Source: Squalus acanthias (Eukaryota). Taken from it: a stretch of 64,000 nucleotides of DNA. Position 1 is the stretch's first letter. Each line of letters starts with the position of its first letter. Both the position numbers and the translations under genes were made by a program. Location: NCBI GenBank assembly GCA_030390025.1, contig CM059431.1, forward strand, positions 133,302,001 to 133,366,000. Reading direction: 5' to 3'. Shown in pieces: positions 311-6,079 of this stretch. The notes beneath the pieces were generated by a model. It saw only the letters and a program-made list of their open reading frames with translations. It had not been told where the DNA came from and did not search any database.

Positions 311-892
311 ATAGAAACATAGAAAAATAGGAGCAGGAGTAGGCCATTCGGACCTTCGAGCCTGCTCCGCCATTCAATATCATGGCTGATCCTCTATCTC
401 AATACCATATTCCTGTTCTTTCCCCATACCCCTTGATGCCTTTTGTGTCTAGAAATCTATCTATCTCCTTCTTAAATATATTCAGTGACTTGGCCTCCAC
501 AGCCTTCTGTGGTAGAGAATTCCATAGGTTCATAGGTGAAGAAATTTCTCCTCATCTCAGTCCTAAATGTCCTACCCCGTATCCTGAGACTGTGACCCCT
601 CGTTCTAGACCCCCCAGCCAGGGGAAACATCCTCCCTGCATCCAGTCTGTCTAGCCCTGTCAGAATTTTATACGTTTCAATGAGATCCCCTCTCATTCTT
701 CTAAACTCTAGTGAATACAGGCCTAGTCGACCCAATCTCTCCTCTTACGACAGTCCTGCCATCCCAGGAATCAGTCTGGTGAACCTTCGCTGCACTCCCT
801 CTATGGCAAGTATATCCTTTCTTAGGTAAGGAGACAAAACTGCACACAGTACTCCAGGTGTGGTCTCACCAAGGCCCTGTATAACTGTAGTA

Positions 893-1996
893 TAGACCTC
901 CTCAGAAGGCAAACACGGGACACAACCAACAGGGTACCCTACGTCGTCCAGTACTTCCCCGGAGCGGAGAAACTACGCCATGTTCTTCGCAGCCTTCAAC
1001 ATGTCATCGATGACGACAAACACCTCGCTAAGGCCATCCCCACGCCTCCACTACTTGCCTTCAAACAGCCGCCTAACCTCAGAAGTACCATCGTTCGCAG
1101 CAAATTACCCAGCTTTCAGGATAACAGCGACCACGACACCACACAACCCTGCCATGGCAAACTCTGCAAGACATGCCAGATCATCAACACAGATACCACC
1201 ATCACACGTGAGGACACTACCCACCAGGTACATGGTACATACTCATGTGACTCGGCCAACGTTGTCTACCTCATACGTTGCAGGAAAGAATGCACCGCGG
1301 CATGGTACATCGGCGAGACCATGCAGACACTGAGACAACGTATGAACGAGCACCGCGCAACAATCGCCAGGCAGGATTGTTACCTCCCAGTCGGGGAACA
1401 CTTCAGCAGTCAAGGACATTCAGCCTCGGATCTGCGGGTAAGCGTTCTCCAAGGCAACCTTAGAAACACACGACAACGCAAAATCATCGAGCAGAAACTG
1501 ACAGCCAAGTTCCGCACTCATGAAGATGGTCTCAATCGGGATCTTGGGTTTATGTCACGATACATGACGTGATCCGGACTCGAGTCGTCGTTAGCTTGTT
1601 CACAGATGTGATTCCCAGTAAAAAAGTAAAAATTTTCCCAGTAAAAAAGTAAAAATGTTAAAGCTTTTCGTTTTACATACAGACGGCAGCTTTTGACACG
1701 TTAGAACCCCTGCGACTACACCTCATTGTCTCAGTTGTATCTTGCTATGTCTTTGATGTGGTACCTTCCTGGCTGACTTAATTAACTTTATCACACCTCG
1801 GCAGATAGTCAGGATGATTTAATTTAGTGGTCTGCAATTGTAAGGTACACATGCTTTGTTTTCTATCTATATATGCTTTGGCGATTCTGTATCTAATTTA
1901 CTTCACCTGAGGAAGGAGCAATCGATAGCTCCGAAAGCTTGTGATTTCAAATAAAACTGTTGGACTATAACCTGGTGTTGTGCGACCTCTCAATTT
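893..1996 (+). mobile_element. 5'-truncated Penelope-like retroelement with GIY-YIG endonuclease and 3' pLTR
   Basis: Open frame 901-1572 with PCHGKLCKTC, SCDSANVVYLIRC...WYIGET...RMNEH...GLN. 11-bp TSD TAACTGTAGTA at 882-892 and 1997-2007. Confidence 0.92.
1904..1943 (+). ncRNA. Minimal type I hammerhead ribozyme in Penelope pLTR
   Basis: cac-CTGAGGA-a-ggagc(aatcgata)gctcc-GAAA-gctt-gtg. Intact CUGANGA and GAAA core, 5-bp stem II, stem I cac/gtg, palindromic AAGCTT stem III. Confidence 0.8.
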
Positions 1997-2334
1997 TAAC
2001 TGTAGTAAGACATCCTTGCTCCTGTACTCAAATCCTCTTGCAATGAAGGCCAACATACCATTTGCCTTCCTAACTGCTTGCTGCACCTGCATGTTTGCTT
2101 TCGGTGACTGGTGTACAAGGACACCCAGGTCCCTCTGTACATCAACATTTCCCAATCTATCACCATTTAAATAATACTCTGCCTTTCTGTTTTTCCTACC
2201 GAAGTGAGTAACTTCACATTTATCCACATTATACTGCATCTGCCATGTATTTGCCCATTCACTCAACTTGTCTAAATCGCCTTGAAGCCTCTTTGCATCC
2301 TCCTCACAACTCACAATTCCACTTAGTTTTGTGT

Positions 2335-5300
2335 AATTTTTGATAAAGCAGTTCGGGAGCATTTAAACTAGTATGGCAGGGGGCTAGAAACCTATGTAGT
2401 GAAATAGAGGAAAGTGAAAGGCAGGCAGAAATAAATGGTAAAAGGGTGAGGAACAAAAAACAAAGGGCCAAACCAATTCATAAAAAATGTGAGCATAAAA
2501 AAAGCCTGAGGGTTTTACACCTTAATGCGAGAAGCATCAGGAACAAGGTAGATGAATTAGCTGTGGAAATAGAGGTTAATAATTATGATCTAATTGGGAT
2601 TACGGAAACATGGTTGCAGGGTGAGCAGGGCTGGGAGCTTAACATACAGGGGTATTCAGTATTTAGGAAGGATCGACAAAAAAGAAAGGGAGGAGGGGTA
2701 GCATTGCTGGTAAAAGAAGGGAGAAATGCAATTGAAAGGAAGGATATTAACTCAGTTAATACAGAATCTATATGGGTGGAGCTAAGAAATAGCGAGGGGC
2801 GAAAAACATTAATAGGAGTGGTATATAGGCCTCCAAATAGTAAAATAGAGGTTGGGGAGGGCATCACGAGGGAAATTAGAGAAGCGTGCAATAAGAGCAC
2901 AGCTGTCATCATAGGTGACTTTAACTTACATATAGATTGGACTAGCCTAATCAGTAAAAATAATGAGGAGGAGGAATTCCTTGAGTGTTTAAGGGATGGT
3001 TATCTGGATCAATATGTCGAGGAACCAACTCGGGAACAGGCTATATTGGACTGGGTACTGTGCAATGAGAAGGGACTAATTAGTAATCTTGTTGTACGGG
3101 GACCCTTGGGTCAGAGCGATCATAACATGATCGATTTCTCACTCGAAATGGAGAGCGAAGAAATTGACTCAGATACTAAGGTCCTGAATTTAAACAAGGG
3201 GAATTATGATGCCATTAGACGGGAACTGAGTAGGTATGATTGGACAACGTTCCTGGGAGGACTGGAGGTAGATAAACAATGGCAAGCATTTAAAGATAGA
3301 ATGACAAAATTGCAAAAATTGTTTATACCAATCTGGCATAAAAGGAAATCTAAAAAGGTGACTCAACCGTGGATAACAGGGGAAATTAGAGACAGCATAA
3401 AATCCAAAGATAGGGCGTATAAAATAGCCAAAAAAAGCGCCAGAGCGGAAGATTGGGAACAGTTTAAGATAGAGCAAAGGAGGACAAAGGGCTTAATCAA
3501 GAGGGGCAAAATAGCTTACGAAAGCAAGCTGGCGGAAAATATAAAAACTAACTCCAAAAGCTTTTATAAGTATATCAAGAGGAAAAGACTGGTGAAAACC
3601 AAAGTTGGCCCATTGCAGTCAGATACGGGGGAATATATAACGGGAAATAAAGAAATGGCAGACCAACTAAATGCATACTTTGGGTCAGTCTTTACGAAGG
3701 AAGACACAAAAAACCTCCCTGGGATATCGGGAAAAATAGGGACATTTGCAAAGGAGGAACTGACGCAAGTCAATATCTCTAAGGATATGGTGTTAAGGAA
3801 GCTAAAGGGATTGAAGGCGGACAAATCCCCAGGGCCTGATAACATGCATCCTAGGCTGCTGAAGGAGGTGGCCCTAGAGATAGCGGATGCACTAAGTATG
3901 ATTTTTCAGAATTCATTAGACTCGGGAACAGTGCCCATGGATTGGAGGGTAGCTAACGTTACCCCACTATTCAAAAAGGGGGGTAGGGAAAAAGCAGGTA
4001 ATTACAGACCTGTAAGCCTTACATCAGTTGTGGGCAAAATGCTGGAGTCCATCATTAAGGATGAAATAGCGGAGCACTTAGCAAATGGGGACAGGATAGG
4101 ACAGAGTCAACATGGATTTACAAAGGGTAAATCGTGCTTGACTAATCTATTGGAATTTTTTGAGGGAGTAACTGGTAAAATAGATGGGGGAGAGCCAGTA
4201 GATGTGGTGTACCTGGACTTCCAAAAGGCCTTCGATAAGGTCCCACATAAAAGATTAGCATGGAAAATTGAAGCTCATGGGATAAAGGGGAAAGTATTGA
4301 CGTGGATAGAGAACTGGCTGTCAGATAGAAAACAGAGAGTTGGAATAAACGGCTCATTTTCTGAATGGCAGGCAGTAACAAGTGGGGTACCACAGGGATC
4401 TGTCCTGGGTCCCCAGCTGTTCACAATTTACATTAATGACCTGGATCAGGGAGTCGGATGCAGCATTTCCAAATTTGCAGACGACACTAAACTAGGAGGG
4501 GGGGGTGGGCTCAGAGGAGGAGACCAGGAAGCTCCAGAGCGATTTGGACAGACTGGGTGATTGGGCGGATAAATGGCAGATGCACTATAATGTGGACAAG
4601 TGCGAAGTTATCCACCTTGGGTGCAGGAACGGGAGGGCAAATTATTATTTAAATGGCAATAAATTGGGAGAGGGGGAAGTACAGAGAGACCTGGGTGTTC
4701 TTGTACACCAGTCACTGAAGGCGAGCATGCAGGTGCAACAGGCGGTCAAGAAGGCAAACGGTATGCTGGCCTTCATAGCAAAAGGGTTGGAATACAGGAA
4801 CAGGGATACCTTGCTGCAGCTGTACAGGGCACTGGTGAGACCACACCTCGAGTACTGTGTACAGTTTTGGTCGCCTCATCTGAGGAAAGATGTTCTTGCC
4901 ATGGAGGGGGTGCAGCGGCGATTCACCAGGCTGATACCAGGAATGGCGGGATTGACCTATGAGGAGAGACTATGTAGTTCAGGGATGTACACACTGGAGT
5001 TTAGAAGATTGAGAGGGGACCTCATAGAAGTGTATAAAATTCTGACAGGTCTAGACAGACTAGATGCAGAAGGAATGTTTCCCTTGGCGGGTGAGAACAG
5101 AACTAGAGGACATAATTTAAGGATAAGGGCTAAACCATTTAGGACAGAAATGAGGGGGAATTTCTTCACTCAGAGGGTGGTGAACCTGTGGAACTCATTG
5201 CCACAGAGGGCAGTGTACGCCAGCTCATTAAATATATTTAAGAGGGAATTAGATATATTTCTACAGGCAAAAGGGGTTAAGGGTTACGGAGAGAAGGCGG

Positions 5301-5411
5301 GGACGGGATACTGAATTGGAGGATCAGCCATGATCTCATTAAATGGCGGAGCAGGCTCGAAGGGCCGGATGGCCTACTCCTGCTCCTATCTTCTATGTAT
5401 CTATGTATCTA
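2335..5411 (+). mobile_element. Young CR1 LINE: last codons of ORF1, near-intact ORF2 (APE endonuclease + RT), 3' UTR and (CTATGTAT)n tail
   Basis: ORFs 2446-4560 and 4505-5314 are joined by one extra G in the G-run at 4498-4505. Motifs LNARS, ITETWL, GDFN, SDH, QGSVLGP, FADD. TSD TGTGT at 2330-2334 and 5412-5416. Confidence 0.95.
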
Positions 5412-6079
5412 TGTGTCGTCAGCAAACTTGGAAATATTACATTTGGTTCCCTCATCCAAATCATTGATATATATTGTGAATAGCTGGGGCCCAAGCACTG
5501 ATCCCTGCGGTACCCCACTAGTCACCGCCTGCCACCCCGAAAAAGACCCATTTATTCCTACTCTCTGTTTTCTGTCAGTTAACCAATTTTCAATCCATGC
5601 CAGTATATTACCCCCAATCCCATGTGCTTTAATTTTGCGCACTAACCTCTTATGTGGGACTTTATCAAAGGCCTTCTGAAAATCCAAATACACCACATCC
5701 ACTGGTTCTCCCTTATCTATTCTACCAGTTAGATCCTCAAAAAACTCCAGTAGGTTTGTCAAACACGACTTCCCTTTCATAAATCCATGTTGACTTTGTC
5801 TAATCCCGTTGATATTTTCTAAGTGTCCTGTTATCACATCCTTTATAATAGACTCTAGCATTTTCCCTACCACTGATGTTAGGCTAACCGGTCTATAGTT
5901 CCCTGTTTTCTCTCTCCCTCCTTTTTTAAATAGTGGGGTTACATTTGCCACCCTCCAATCTGCAGGAACTGTTCCATAATCTGGGGTGGGGCAGAGAGTG
6001 TATGGTGGGGGGGGAGGGGGGGGGGCGGTTGGGTGGGTTACCCTTCAGCCTTCTCTTTTCTGAAGAAAAGAGCTTCAGC

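What the first reader, a model, noticed from the sequence alone, without database searches (positions are those of the whole stretch)
2342..3129. Candidate programmed -1 ribosomal frameshift joining CR1 ORF1 to an ORF2 with no AUG before its endonuclease
Seen: ORF1 ends ...GAG CAT TTA AAC TAG, which puts T_TTA_AAC (2362-2368) in X_XXY_YYZ register directly before the stop (2369-2371). Slipping -1 gives TTT AAA CTA GTA TGG CAG..., open without a stop into ORF2 (the frame of the 704-aa ORF). The first in-frame ATG is at 3127, after the whole APE endonuclease domain including the catalytic SDH. Established: UUUAAAC is the coronavirus 1a/1b slippery site, while LINE ORF2 is usually explained by termination-reinitiation (L1) or stop-start coupling (SART1). 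Inference: this young CR1 may make an ORF1-ORF2 fusion in the manner of gag-pol. I do not know of this being shown for CR1, but I cannot search the literature.
Basis: partly seen in the sequence, partly recalled or inferred. Interest (0 to 1): 0.85.

Follow-up and report, generated by a model that had tools for sequence, protein, structure and literature searches.

The report
Conserved frameshift site joining CR1 ORFs
A jumping gene (CR1 LINE) of a cartilaginous fish ends its first gene in a slippery sequence that is conserved across vertebrates and probably lets ribosomes slip back one base into the second gene, which would explain how that gene gets translated.

Summary
The bases are as described: TTTAAAC at 2362-2368 in X_XXY_YYZ register, TAG at 2369-2371, and a -1 frame open from 2347 with no ATG before 3127. 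But the window copy has no ORF1. It is 5'-truncated at about 2335, nested in an older antisense CR1, and keeps only ORF1's last 12 codons.

Near-identical full-length copies elsewhere in the genome carry a 315-aa esterase ORF1 ending CAT TTA AAC TAG. In six diverged lineages of this genome the heptamer is invariant, a TAG or TAA follows it directly, ORF2 is in -1, and only the ORF2 frame lacks stops up to the endonuclease domain. In-frame AUGs are not conserved.

Of 174 ORF1 homologues, 77 end in L-N, 11 in G-N and 2 in K-N, and the residue before fits NNU, NNG or NNA (76/77, 11/11, 2/2). One metagenome contig confirms CAG GGA AAC TAG with ORF2 in -1. Published CR1 consensus sequences from 12 species show TTTAAAC plus a stop at the junction.

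I found no stable downstream RNA structure, only a G-run 8-12 nt on. One subfamily (D1) spread with the heptamer out of register. There is no experimental evidence.

Verdict: a conserved candidate -1 frameshift site, confidence about 0.65. I found no paper describing it.

The parts
2335..5412 (+). 5'-truncated copy of a young CR1 LINE (family 'A'), inserted into an older antisense CR1
   Evidence: Searches give the boundaries: the point where similarity to full-length copies is lost, the split host RT motif, and the flanking GTGT/TGTGT repeat.
2336..2368 (+). Remnant of ORF1: its last 11 codons (...[11 protein letters not shown]), plus 2 bases of a twelfth codon at 2333-2335
   Evidence: Full-length copies (L004:590-1534) have a 315-aa ORF1 with an SGNH/GDSL esterase domain (PF13472, E = 4.4e-11) ending on these codons.
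2362..2368 (+). Slippery heptamer T_TTA_AAC in ORF1 register
   Evidence: Invariant in lineages A, B, B2, C, D and E. Present in 30/30, 23/30 and 20/20 sampled copies.
2369..2371 (+). ORF1 stop codon TAG, flush against the heptamer
   Evidence: TAG or TAA in this genome's lineages. TAG, TAA and TGA all occur in other vertebrates' CR1 consensus sequences.
2344..2346 (+). TAA that closes the ORF2 (-1) frame 15 nt upstream of the heptamer, so the overlap window is very short
2379..2383 (+). G5 run inside the conserved block TGGCAGGGGG (2374-2383), starting 10 nt after the heptamer. A possible unstructured stimulator.
   Evidence: A run of at least 4 G starts 8-12 nt after the heptamer in all 7 lineages examined. 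Four of the five invariant downstream columns lie here. G-rich tracts follow the site in other vertebrates' consensus sequences.
2372..2523 (+). Linker between the shift site and the endonuclease domain: basic, fast-evolving, and open only in the ORF2 frame
   Evidence: 0 stops in the ORF2 frame against 3-7 and 4-10 in the other two frames. P(no stop) = 0.017 for family A by shuffling; dN/dS inconclusive.
2347..4560 (+). ORF2 frame as open in the window: APE endonuclease at about 2524-3132, first ATG at 3127, RT at about 3982-4489. It ends early because of a frameshift in a G-run near 4500.
4496..5314 (+). Rest of ORF2 (RT C-terminal region), in another frame
   Evidence: It resembles the other CR1 copies in the window.
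5389..5412 (+). 3' tail of short direct repeats (ATCTATGT-like), as recalled for CR1 elements
   Evidence: That this tail is typical of CR1 is recalled, not tested.
1898..2334 (-). 3' half of the older host CR1 (RT C-terminal region) that the young copy interrupted
   Evidence: ORF 1898..2362 minus; 78% match to 4514-4819.
5413..6044 (-). 5' half of the interrupted host CR1 (RT domain ending ...ISKFADDT)
   Evidence: ORF 5409..6044 minus.

Best explanation
The site is a conserved programmed -1 ribosomal frameshift signal at the ORF1/ORF2 junction of CR1 LINEs.

Proposed mechanism (inferred):
- Most ribosomes translating the bicistronic CR1 RNA terminate ORF1 (an SGNH-esterase-type ORF1p) at the UAG or UAA directly after U_UUA_AAC.
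- A minority slip back one base while UUA and AAC occupy the P and A sites, re-pairing on UUU and AAA.
- These ribosomes continue in the -1 frame (...EHLN-LVWQG...) through a basic linker into the endonuclease and reverse-transcriptase domains.
- The product is an ORF1-ORF2 fusion made at a low ratio to ORF1p, as with Gag and Gag-Pol.

What is shown: the sequence anatomy, the phase relation, and deep conservation at nucleotide level, including equivalent heptamers (G_GGA_AAC, and probably A_AAA_AAC) in distant lineages.

What is inferred: the slippage itself, its efficiency, and any role for the adjacent stop codon or for the G-run 8-12 nt downstream.

The window's own copy cannot perform the shift, because its ORF1 was lost to 5' truncation.
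For: 1. Anatomy.
- The heptamer is in register, flush with the stop. ORF2 is in -1 and opens 15 nt upstream.
- Domain identities are confirmed.

2. Six lineages of this genome (A, B, B2, C, D, E), with ORF1 identity to A from about 44% to 85%.
- Heptamer 7/7 columns invariant and stop 2/3 (TAR), against 10/36 upstream and 5/33 downstream columns.
- All majority sequences have ORF2 in -1.

3. Reading frames after the heptamer.
- Only the ORF2 frame is stop-free between the heptamer and the APE domain: 0 stops against 3-7 and 4-10.
- P(no stop) by shuffling is 0.001-0.04 per lineage.
- In-frame AUGs are absent in A and at non-homologous positions elsewhere.

4. Codon choice.
- TTA is 4-13% of Leu codons and NNT is 20-24% of codons in the shark ORF1 bodies, yet the end is always NNT TTA AAC.
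- In L061 the ORF1 body uses AAT 12 times and AAC once, yet the terminal Asn is AAC.

5. Proteins.
- Of 174 ORF1 homologues whose match reaches the C-terminus, 77 end in LN, 11 in GN and 2 in KN; 97 end in N.
- Position -3 takes 12 different residues but is NNU-compatible in 76/77. K/Q/E/M/W occupy 36/77 at position -4 and 24/77 at -5. Binomial P = 4e-6, not corrected for phylogeny.
- GN ends are preceded by Q, A or P (11/11 NNG-compatible). KN ends are preceded by S (2/2).
- Named sources include sharks, rays, a frog, turtles, lizards, a snake and alligator.

6. DNA outside this genome.
- L061: CAG GGA AAC TAG, with the APE domain in -1 and an open linker.
- Supplementary Table 2 of PMC13343379: TTTAAAC plus TAG, TAA or TGA at the junction in 18 consensus families of 12 species, by my reading of the flanks.

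7. Natural in-frame ORF1-ORF2 copies arise at this very point: a G9 run instead of G8 just 5' of the heptamer, in open frames of about 600-1280 aa.
Against: - No significant RNA structure lies downstream in any of 7 lineages (z = -0.23; -1.03 to +1.62). A two-layer G-quadruplex is predicted only in B, B2 and D. Canonical eukaryotic -1 sites usually have a pseudoknot or hairpin 5-9 nt downstream (recalled). Pseudoknots were not searched for.
- Subfamily D1 (7 of 9 sampled D copies) has one G fewer 47 nt upstream. Its 312-315-aa ORF1 therefore ends at the UAA inside TTTAAAC and ORF2 is at +1. So a subfamily spread with the heptamer out of register.
- Three crocodilian consensus sequences appear to have the same 1-nt-shorter spacing. 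This rests on my manual reading of low-confidence consensus letters.
- Lineages B, B2, C, D, E and L061 do have in-frame AUGs between the junction and the APE domain, so independent initiation is possible there.
- dN/dS of the linker does not distinguish the ORF2 frame (0.33-0.84) from the control frames (0.39-1.15).
- In old copies the phase at the first APE match is -1 in only 13 of the 20 copies whose ORF1 ends in register. I attribute the other 7 to decay.
- There are no ribosome-profiling, mass-spectrometry or reporter data.
Confidence: 0.65

Rival explanations
1. Termination-reinitiation. Ribosomes finish ORF1 at the UAG or UAA, and some of them, or their 40S subunits, restart nearby in the ORF2 frame without needing an AUG, as reported for L1, or at the lineage-specific AUGs. 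The conserved TTTAAAC-stop-G-run block would then be a reinitiation-promoting element rather than a slip site.
For: - ORF2 translation in bicistronic non-LTR elements is described as unclear, with SART1 using a UAAUG stop-start and L1 an unconventional mechanism (passages of PMC3708506).
- Most lineages have some in-frame AUG downstream.
- D1 copies terminate 5 nt earlier, in another frame, yet spread. That fits a frame-independent restart.
- No stimulatory structure was found.
Against: - Reinitiation does not explain why the last three ORF1 codons are held to NNU UUA AAC, NNG GGA AAC or NNA AAA AAC in ORF1 register across lineages.
- It does not explain why the ORF2 frame must be open from upstream of the stop.
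- AUG positions are not conserved, and family A, the youngest with copies at 99-100% identity, has none before the catalytic residues.
- There is no stop-start overlap such as UAAUG. The ATG at 2373 is in the third frame and closes after 4 codons.
Confidence: 0.2
2. The conservation reflects something other than translation of ORF2: a functional C-terminal ...L-N on ORF1p, or an RNA or DNA element at this position (packaging, ORF1p binding, splicing or stability signal). ORF2 would then be expressed by leaky scanning, an internal entry site, or from a separate RNA.
For: - L-N is strongly conserved at protein level.
- The conserved block extends past the stop (TGGCAGGGGG).
- Linker dN/dS is inconclusive.
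Against: - Leu, Gly and Lys at position -2 are chemically unrelated but are exactly the XXA codons that give homotriplet heptamers. Position -3 is free in amino-acid terms yet restricted to codons that can end in the matching base.
- Rare codons are used at the end.
- The stop codon varies among TAG, TAA and TGA while the heptamer stays the same.
- Contigs that bridge the junction show no splice or indel there (weak, because they are contigs of uncertain library type).
Confidence: 0.08
3. Chance or shared ancestry only. TTTAAAC next to the stop is an inherited accident of one shark CR1 lineage, with no function.
For: Copies of family A are 99-100% identical, so they carry no information on selection by themselves. 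Dead copies lose the heptamer at an ordinary rate (7 of 30 in the older sample).
Against: - The same site occurs in lineages whose ORF2 N-termini are only 37-54% identical.
- It occurs in a contig with 32% ORF1 identity that uses a different but equivalent heptamer.
- It occurs in consensus sequences from tetrapods, coelacanth, bowfin and cartilaginous fishes.
Confidence: 0.03

Closest known systems
Gag-Pol -1 frameshifting of retroviruses and LTR retrotransposons, and the coronavirus 1a/1b site U_UUA_AAC
   Same: A canonical X_XXY_YYZ heptamer, here the very same UUUAAAC. The downstream enzymatic ORF is in -1, the overlap is short, and the expected product is a low-ratio fusion of a structural or RNA-binding protein with the polymerase. 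The review PMC5009743 (passages) notes that 28 of 51 animal LTR elements surveyed had pol in -1. That UUUAAAC is the coronavirus site is recalled.
   Different: The element is a non-LTR LINE with no protease to process a fusion. No pseudoknot or hairpin stimulator was detected. The 0-frame stop codon directly abuts the heptamer.
PEG10 / Ty3-gypsy-derived G_GGA_AAC frameshift site
   Same: The distant CR1-like contig L061 uses G_GGA_AAC, and 11 ORF1 homologues end in ...[Q/A/P]-G-N. PEG10 frameshifting is mentioned in PMC5009743. Its heptamer is recalled.
   Different: PEG10 has a pseudoknot stimulator (passage). None was found here.
Luteovirus and dianthovirus -1 sites in which the slippery heptamer is followed directly by the 0-frame stop
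   Same: The heptamer is flush against the stop codon of the upstream ORF.
   Different: Those are plant RNA viruses with large, partly long-distance RNA structures as stimulators. Here there is only a G-run.
SART1 (UAAUG stop-start coupling) and human L1 (unconventional termination-reinitiation)
   Same: They are bicistronic non-LTR retrotransposons whose ORF2 must be translated after ORF1 from one RNA (PMC3708506 passages).
   Different: SART1 needs an overlapping AUG and a downstream structure; here no AUG overlaps the stop. L1 has an inter-ORF spacer and no slippery heptamer in register (recalled).
Non-LTR elements for which recoding has been suggested: Drosophila HeT-A gag frameshift, and Paramecium LINEs (+1 frameshift, reinitiation or readthrough)
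   Same: Recoding has been proposed from sequence for LINE-like elements (PMC5009743; PMC5405496).
   Different: They belong to other clades, use other shift directions or sites, and have no conserved canonical -1 heptamer.
Arterivirus nsp2TF site, with an unstructured C-rich motif about 11 nt downstream bound by a protein complex (recalled)
   Same: A linear homopolymer-rich motif at a similar distance (here a G-run 8-12 nt downstream) in place of an RNA structure.
   Different: The motif here is G-rich and no binding protein is known. This is an analogy only.

Membership tests
CR1-clade non-LTR retrotransposon (LINE) | ORF2 with an N-terminal APE endonuclease followed by a reverse transcriptase | tested here: met
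   PF03372 (3.3e-9), PF14529 (3.1e-10) and RVT_1 (3.8e-26) on window:2347-4495.
CR1-clade non-LTR retrotransposon (LINE) | ORF1 of the esterase (SGNH/GDSL) type with an N-terminal Cys-rich region | tested here: met
   PF13472 at 4.4e-11 on L004:590-1534. This holds for full-length family members; the window copy has only the last 12 codons.
CR1-clade non-LTR retrotransposon (LINE) | Frequent 5' truncation and a 3' end of short direct repeats instead of poly(A) | tested here: met
   truncation at about 2335; an ATCTATGT-like tail at 5389-5412; most window copies cover only 3' parts. That these traits define CR1 is recalled.
CR1-clade non-LTR retrotransposon (LINE) | Placement within the CR1 clade by RT phylogeny | not tested
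   No tree was built. The closest ORF1 homologues are elasmobranch proteins, and junctions match sequences labelled LINE/CR1 in PMC13343379 Supplementary Table 2.
Programmed -1 ribosomal frameshift site | X_XXY_YYZ heptamer in the register of the upstream ORF | tested here: met
   T_TTA_AAC in lineages A-E and G_GGA_AAC in L061.
Programmed -1 ribosomal frameshift site | Downstream ORF in the -1 frame, open across the shift site | tested here: met
   Exceptions: subfamily D1 and decayed copies.
Programmed -1 ribosomal frameshift site | Conservation of the heptamer, including synonymous positions, beyond that of the flanks | tested here: met
Programmed -1 ribosomal frameshift site | Stimulatory RNA structure (hairpin or pseudoknot) 5-9 nt downstream | tested here: not met
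   no fold better than shuffles in 7 lineages. Pseudoknots were not searched for. Only a conserved G-run is present.
Programmed -1 ribosomal frameshift site | A trans-frame protein product or a measured frameshift efficiency | not testable with these tools
   This needs reporter assays, mass spectrometry or ribosome profiling.
Stop-start (termination-reinitiation) coupling of the SART1 type | ORF2 AUG overlapping or next to the ORF1 stop (UAAUG) in the ORF2 frame | tested here: not met
   the only nearby ATG (2373-2375) is in the third frame and closes after 4 codons. Family A has no ORF2-frame ATG for 758 nt.

The most novel reading that the evidence does not exclude
The CR1 junction is an ancient recoding cassette, kept since before cartilaginous and bony vertebrates split, that works without an RNA structure.
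- It is a two-way shifty site. N_NNU_UUA_AAC_UAR shifts -1 from the normal ORF1 frame. In variants that arrive one base out (CUU_UAA_A in some crocodilian consensus sequences, GUU_UAA_A in subfamily D1), it shifts +1 at the slow stop, as in RF2 or Ty1. Both shifts land in the same ORF2 frame.
- The conserved G-tract 8-12 nt downstream is bound by a protein (ORF1p itself or a host G-tract-binding protein). This would tune the ORF1p to ORF1-ORF2p ratio, a trans-activated frameshift like that of arteriviruses.
- If so, CR1, the dominant LINE of most non-mammalian vertebrates, makes its reverse transcriptase only as a fusion to ORF1p.
Probability: 0.15. Interest if true: 0.92.

Novelty: new variant of a known kind. 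Interest (0 to 1): 0.8.

Why it matters
How ORF2 is translated from the bicistronic RNA of LINEs is a long-standing open question. Only L1 (unconventional reinitiation) and SART1 (stop-start coupling) have been studied.

CR1-group elements are the dominant retrotransposons of most non-mammalian vertebrates and make up 22-34% of elasmobranch genomes (PMC13343379, passage).

A conserved canonical slip site at the end of their ORF1 gives a simple, directly testable answer. It predicts:
- an ORF1-ORF2 fusion protein;
- a fixed low ratio of ORF2 to ORF1;
- a defined target (heptamer, stop, G-run) for mutagenesis in reporter and retrotransposition assays.

It would extend gag-pol-type -1 frameshifting from LTR elements and viruses to a LINE clade. 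It would also provide a rare eukaryotic case with no evident RNA structure.

For annotation, ORF2 of CR1 elements should be modelled from the shift site, not from the first ATG.

Tried and rejected
1. RNA stimulator. Folding of 139 nt and of 120 nt in 7 lineages, with and without G-quadruplex energies, gave no significant structure. A two-layer G4 is predicted only in B, B2 and D, so it was rejected as a general feature.

2. Linker dN/dS in three frames for six lineage pairs. The result was inconclusive, so it is not used as support.

3. DNA from other collections.
- Genome contigs and viral contigs returned only bacterial or phage SGNH hydrolases, which are irrelevant.
- The metagenome scan gave one usable locus (L061) and one that ends before the junction (L062).

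4. Other heptamer-plus-stop strings (TTTAAAT+stop, AAAAAAC+stop, GGGAAAC+stop) in the supplement of PMC13343379. By my reading of their flanks the hits lie in 5'UTR-like or unrelated contexts, not at junctions. Cells are cut at 400 characters, so most junctions are not visible and no denominator can be given.

5. Laid public contigs.
- The runs are contigs whose RNA status is a guess.
- Contigs bridge the junction without an indel at the heptamer, but this says nothing about expression or translation.
- Only 40 of 208 base differences were listed.

6. The search of earlier findings returned nothing.

7. Kapitonov & Jurka 2003 could not be read. Haas et al. 1997 and Kajikawa et al. 1997 are not in the library. 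An early remark on frame overlap in those papers cannot be excluded.

Only short junction stretches were fetched. L101 was mis-registered and was dropped.

9. I considered and rejected the ATG at 2373 as an ORF2 start: it is in the wrong frame and closes after 4 codons.
Full report
THE OBSERVATION

- TTTAAAC occupies 2362-2368.
- Read in the frame of the TAG at 2369-2371, the sequence is GAG CAT TTA AAC TAG, so the heptamer is in X_XXY_YYZ register and flush with the stop.
- The -1 frame (TTT AAA CTA GTA TGG CAG ...) is open from 2347, just after a TAA at 2344-2346, to 4560.
- That frame carries the Exo_endo_phos and RVT_1 domains.
- Its first ATG is at 3127, after ...GQSDHN.

- The ORF1 frame is closed by a TAG at 2324-2326.
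- The DNA upstream of about 2335 is a different, older CR1 on the minus strand.
- That element's RT motif (...ISKFADDT | KLSG...) is split by the insertion: 5413-6044 is one half and 1898-2334 the other.
- GTGT/TGTGT is repeated at both ends of the insert.

So the plus-strand element (2335-5412) is a 5'-truncated, nested copy. It keeps only the last 12 codons of ORF1. Its ORF2 is also broken by a frameshift in a G-run near 4500 and continues in another frame at 4496-5314.

THE FAMILY

The window's genome (3.7 Gb) is held.
- A 366-nt query across the junction found 40 scored matches at 99-100% identity, out of 265 candidates.
- All 30 fetched loci have TTTAAAC plus a stop, and 27 continue upstream with shared sequence.
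- Full-length copies such as L004 have a 315-aa ORF1: a Cys-rich N-terminus followed by an SGNH/GDSL esterase domain (PF13472, 4.4e-11). This is the esterase ORF1 type described for CR1-like elements (named in passages of PMC3708506 and PMC4120745).
- That ORF1 ends ...[12 protein letters not shown] on the same CAT TTA AAC TAG.

IS THE SITE CONSERVED BEYOND INHERITANCE?

Near-identical copies cannot answer this, so I sampled diverged lineages.

Sampling in this genome:
- A Pfam PF13472 scan found 34,982 first-look candidates. 150 were scored and 30 fetched.
- Two protein queries gave 20 more loci.
- A third query gave lineage E, for which I could fetch only short junction stretches.

I distinguish lineages A (the window's), C, D, B, B2 and E.
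- ORF1 identity to A ranges from about 85% (C) to about 44% (E).
- ORF2 N-termini in the Pfam-sampled lineages (B and relatives) are 37-54% identical to A.

Results:
- Across the six representative sequences, all 7 heptamer columns are invariant and the stop is TAG or TAA. Only 10 of 36 upstream and 5 of 33 downstream columns are invariant.
- In every lineage majority sequence ORF2 is in -1. The 60 codons after the heptamer hold 0 stops in the ORF2 frame, against 3-7 in the ORF1 frame and 4-10 in the third frame.
- By shuffling, the chance of a stop-free linker is 0.001-0.04 per lineage.
- In-frame AUGs are not conserved. A has none; B has one at about codon 57, B2 at 39 and 44, C at 20, D at 45 and E at 17.
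- TTA is a minority Leu codon in the shark ORF1 bodies (4-13%) and NNT codons are 20-24%, yet the end is always NNT TTA AAC.

Counts in old copies show ordinary decay:
- In the Pfam set, 23 of 30 keep TTTAAAC with a flush stop. 20 of these are in ORF1 register, and 13 of the 20 show -1 at the first APE match.
- In the protein-query set, all 20 have TTTAAAC, 19 have a flush stop, 12 are in register, and 11 of those are in -1.

OTHER SPECIES

I collected 253 ORF1 homologues (118; the best 150 of 2,631). In 174 of them the match reaches the C-terminus.
- 77 end in L-N, 11 in G-N and 2 in K-N; 97 end in N.
- The rest are mostly a teleost group ending ...SLRAET and the like.
- Leu, Gly and Lys have nothing in common except that UUA, GGA and AAA are the XXA codons of U_UUA_AAC, G_GGA_AAC and A_AAA_AAC.

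The residue before them behaves as a nucleotide constraint would predict.
- Before L-N there are 12 different residues, but 76 of 77 can be encoded NNU. At positions -4 and -5, K/Q/E/M/W occupy 36 and 24 of 77. The binomial P is 4e-6, not corrected for phylogeny.
- Before G-N come Q (9), A and P, all NNG-compatible. Before K-N comes S (2 of 2).

Named sources of L-N proteins include sharks, rays, a frog, three turtles, three lizards, a snake and alligator. The G-N and K-N types come from unnamed environmental assemblies.

DNA confirms the reading in two ways.
- Metagenome contig L061 (ORF1 32% identical) ends ORF1 with CAG GGA AAC TAG. Its endonuclease domain is in -1 and the linker is open. 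Its ORF1 body uses AAT 12 times and AAC once, yet the terminal Asn is AAC.
- Supplementary Table 2 of PMC13343379 lists curated CR1-group consensus sequences, with cells cut at 400 characters. TTTAAAC+TAG occurs 12 times, +TAA 8 times and +TGA 3 times. By my reading of the flanks, 11, 6 and 1 of these lie at the ORF1/ORF2 junction.
- Those junction hits are in alligator, saltwater crocodile, bearded dragon, bullfrog, coelacanth, bowfin, elephant shark, catshark, spiny dogfish, stingray and sawfish, plus one Crack element of a halosaur.
- All three stop codons follow the same heptamer.

MECHANISM

The best reading is a programmed -1 shift by tandem slippage on U_UUA_AAC (or G_GGA_AAC). It would give an ORF1-ORF2 fusion (...EHLN-LVWQG... 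in family A) at a low ratio to ORF1p.

No RNA structure supports it.
- Folds of the downstream 120-139 nt are no better than shuffles in any of 7 lineages.
- Pseudoknots were not searched for.
- The shared features are the stop codon abutting the heptamer and a run of at least four G starting 8-12 nt downstream. A G-rich tract is also visible in the tetrapod consensus sequences.
- Whether either feature stimulates slippage is inference. A heptamer flush with a stop is recalled from luteoviruses and dianthoviruses, and an unstructured downstream motif bound by proteins from arteriviruses.

Natural in-frame fusions arise at this very point. B2 copies, and one copy of a further lineage (L089), carry a G9 run instead of G8 just 5' of the heptamer and read ...GGGFKLTWQGDG..., within open frames of about 600-1,280 aa.

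EVIDENCE AGAINST

- Subfamily D1 (7 of 9 sampled D copies) has one G fewer 47 nt upstream. Its intact-looking 312-315-aa ORF1 ends at the UAA inside TTTAAAC and ORF2 is at +1. So a subfamily spread with the heptamer out of register.
- It may have been mobilised in trans, ORF2 may be reachable by reinitiation, or GUU_UAA_A may shift +1 into the same frame. None of these was tested.
- Three crocodilian consensus sequences seem to share the shorter spacing (CUU_UAA_A). This rests on low-confidence consensus letters that I read by eye.
- Most lineages other than A do have some in-frame AUG.
- Linker dN/dS is uninformative.
- Public contigs bridge the junction without an indel. That argues only weakly against an RNA-level correction, and it says nothing on translation.

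LITERATURE

Eight full-text searches found no paper proposing frameshifting for CR1. What I saw of each paper was passages only, unless stated.
- The recoding review PMC5009743 mentions only HeT-A and TART among non-LTR elements.
- PMC3708506 calls the ORF2 translation mechanism unclear.
- The ORF1 survey PMC4120745 and the 2026 CR1-group study PMC13343379 contain none of the words frameshift, overlap or slippery. For PMC13343379 I also searched the supplement.
- Paramecium LINEs have been suggested to use +1 shifting or reinitiation (PMC5405496).
- Kapitonov & Jurka 2003 could not be opened.
- Haas 1997 and Kajikawa 1997 are not held, so an early remark there cannot be excluded.

VERDICT

- The interpretation, as a property of the CR1 family and apparently of vertebrate CR1 in general, is well supported by comparative sequence evidence. 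It remains untested experimentally.
- I rate it a new variant of a known kind: canonical -1 frameshifting, here in a LINE, flush with the stop and without a detectable structure.
- Confidence in the mechanism is about 0.65, and interest is 0.8.

Noticed in passing
window 826-1572 (+): A 248-aa open frame with a Cys-rich stretch followed by ...VVYLIRC...WYIGET...RMNEHR... From memory this looks like the GIY-YIG endonuclease end of a Penelope-like element. It lies inside the older antisense CR1 region.
   Followed up: no
window 1898-2334 and 5413-6044 (-), also 311-890 (-): An older CR1 copy on the minus strand is interrupted by the young CR1 at FADDT|KLSG of its RT. The window holds at least 15 further CR1 fragments at 64-78% identity, nearly all of them 3' parts.
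   Followed up: partly
window, position not located: The window contains 500 N, presumably an assembly gap or a withheld stretch.
   Followed up: no
window ~4499-4510: The young copy's ORF2 changes frame inside a G-run (GGAGGGGGGGGTGGG). This could be a true mutation or a homopolymer error. Other copies were not fetched that far.
   Followed up: no
L068-L072, L074, L075 (own genome, lineage D1): This subfamily has one G fewer in a G5 run 47 nt before the heptamer. ORF1 ends ...LLGRV* at the TAA inside TTTAAAC, and ORF2 is then at +1 relative to ORF1.
   Followed up: partly
L087, L088, L090, L091 (lineage B2) and L089 (another lineage): In these copies an extra base in the G-run just 5' of TTTAAAC puts ORF1 and ORF2 in one open frame (about 600-1,280 aa in the list). 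Because the G8 run lies inside the 22-nt overlap window, transcriptional or reverse-transcription slippage could also produce fusions in this lineage.
   Followed up: partly
Junctions of lineages A-E, L061, and consensus sequences in PMC13343379 Supplementary Table 2: A G-rich tract (for example GGCAGGGGGATGGG, GTGGGGGGGAGG, GCCGGGGGATGGGG, GGGGAGGGGAC) starts 8-12 nt after the heptamer in elements from sharks to crocodilians and a lizard. The encoded peptide there varies.
   Followed up: partly
P0009, P0024, P0058/P0059, P0099, P0156: Several CR1 ORF1 homologues sit in public records under unrelated names: a Pseudomonas aeruginosa SGNH hydrolase, 40S ribosomal protein S24 isoform, TMEM204 isoforms, ABHD14A-like and sarcosine dehydrogenase. 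This suggests contamination or gene models that have swallowed a CR1 ORF1.
   Followed up: no
L067 (own genome): A decayed copy of the E-like lineage has TTTAAAC followed by AAG TAA instead of a flush stop. A single T-to-A change of TAG would explain it.
   Followed up: partly
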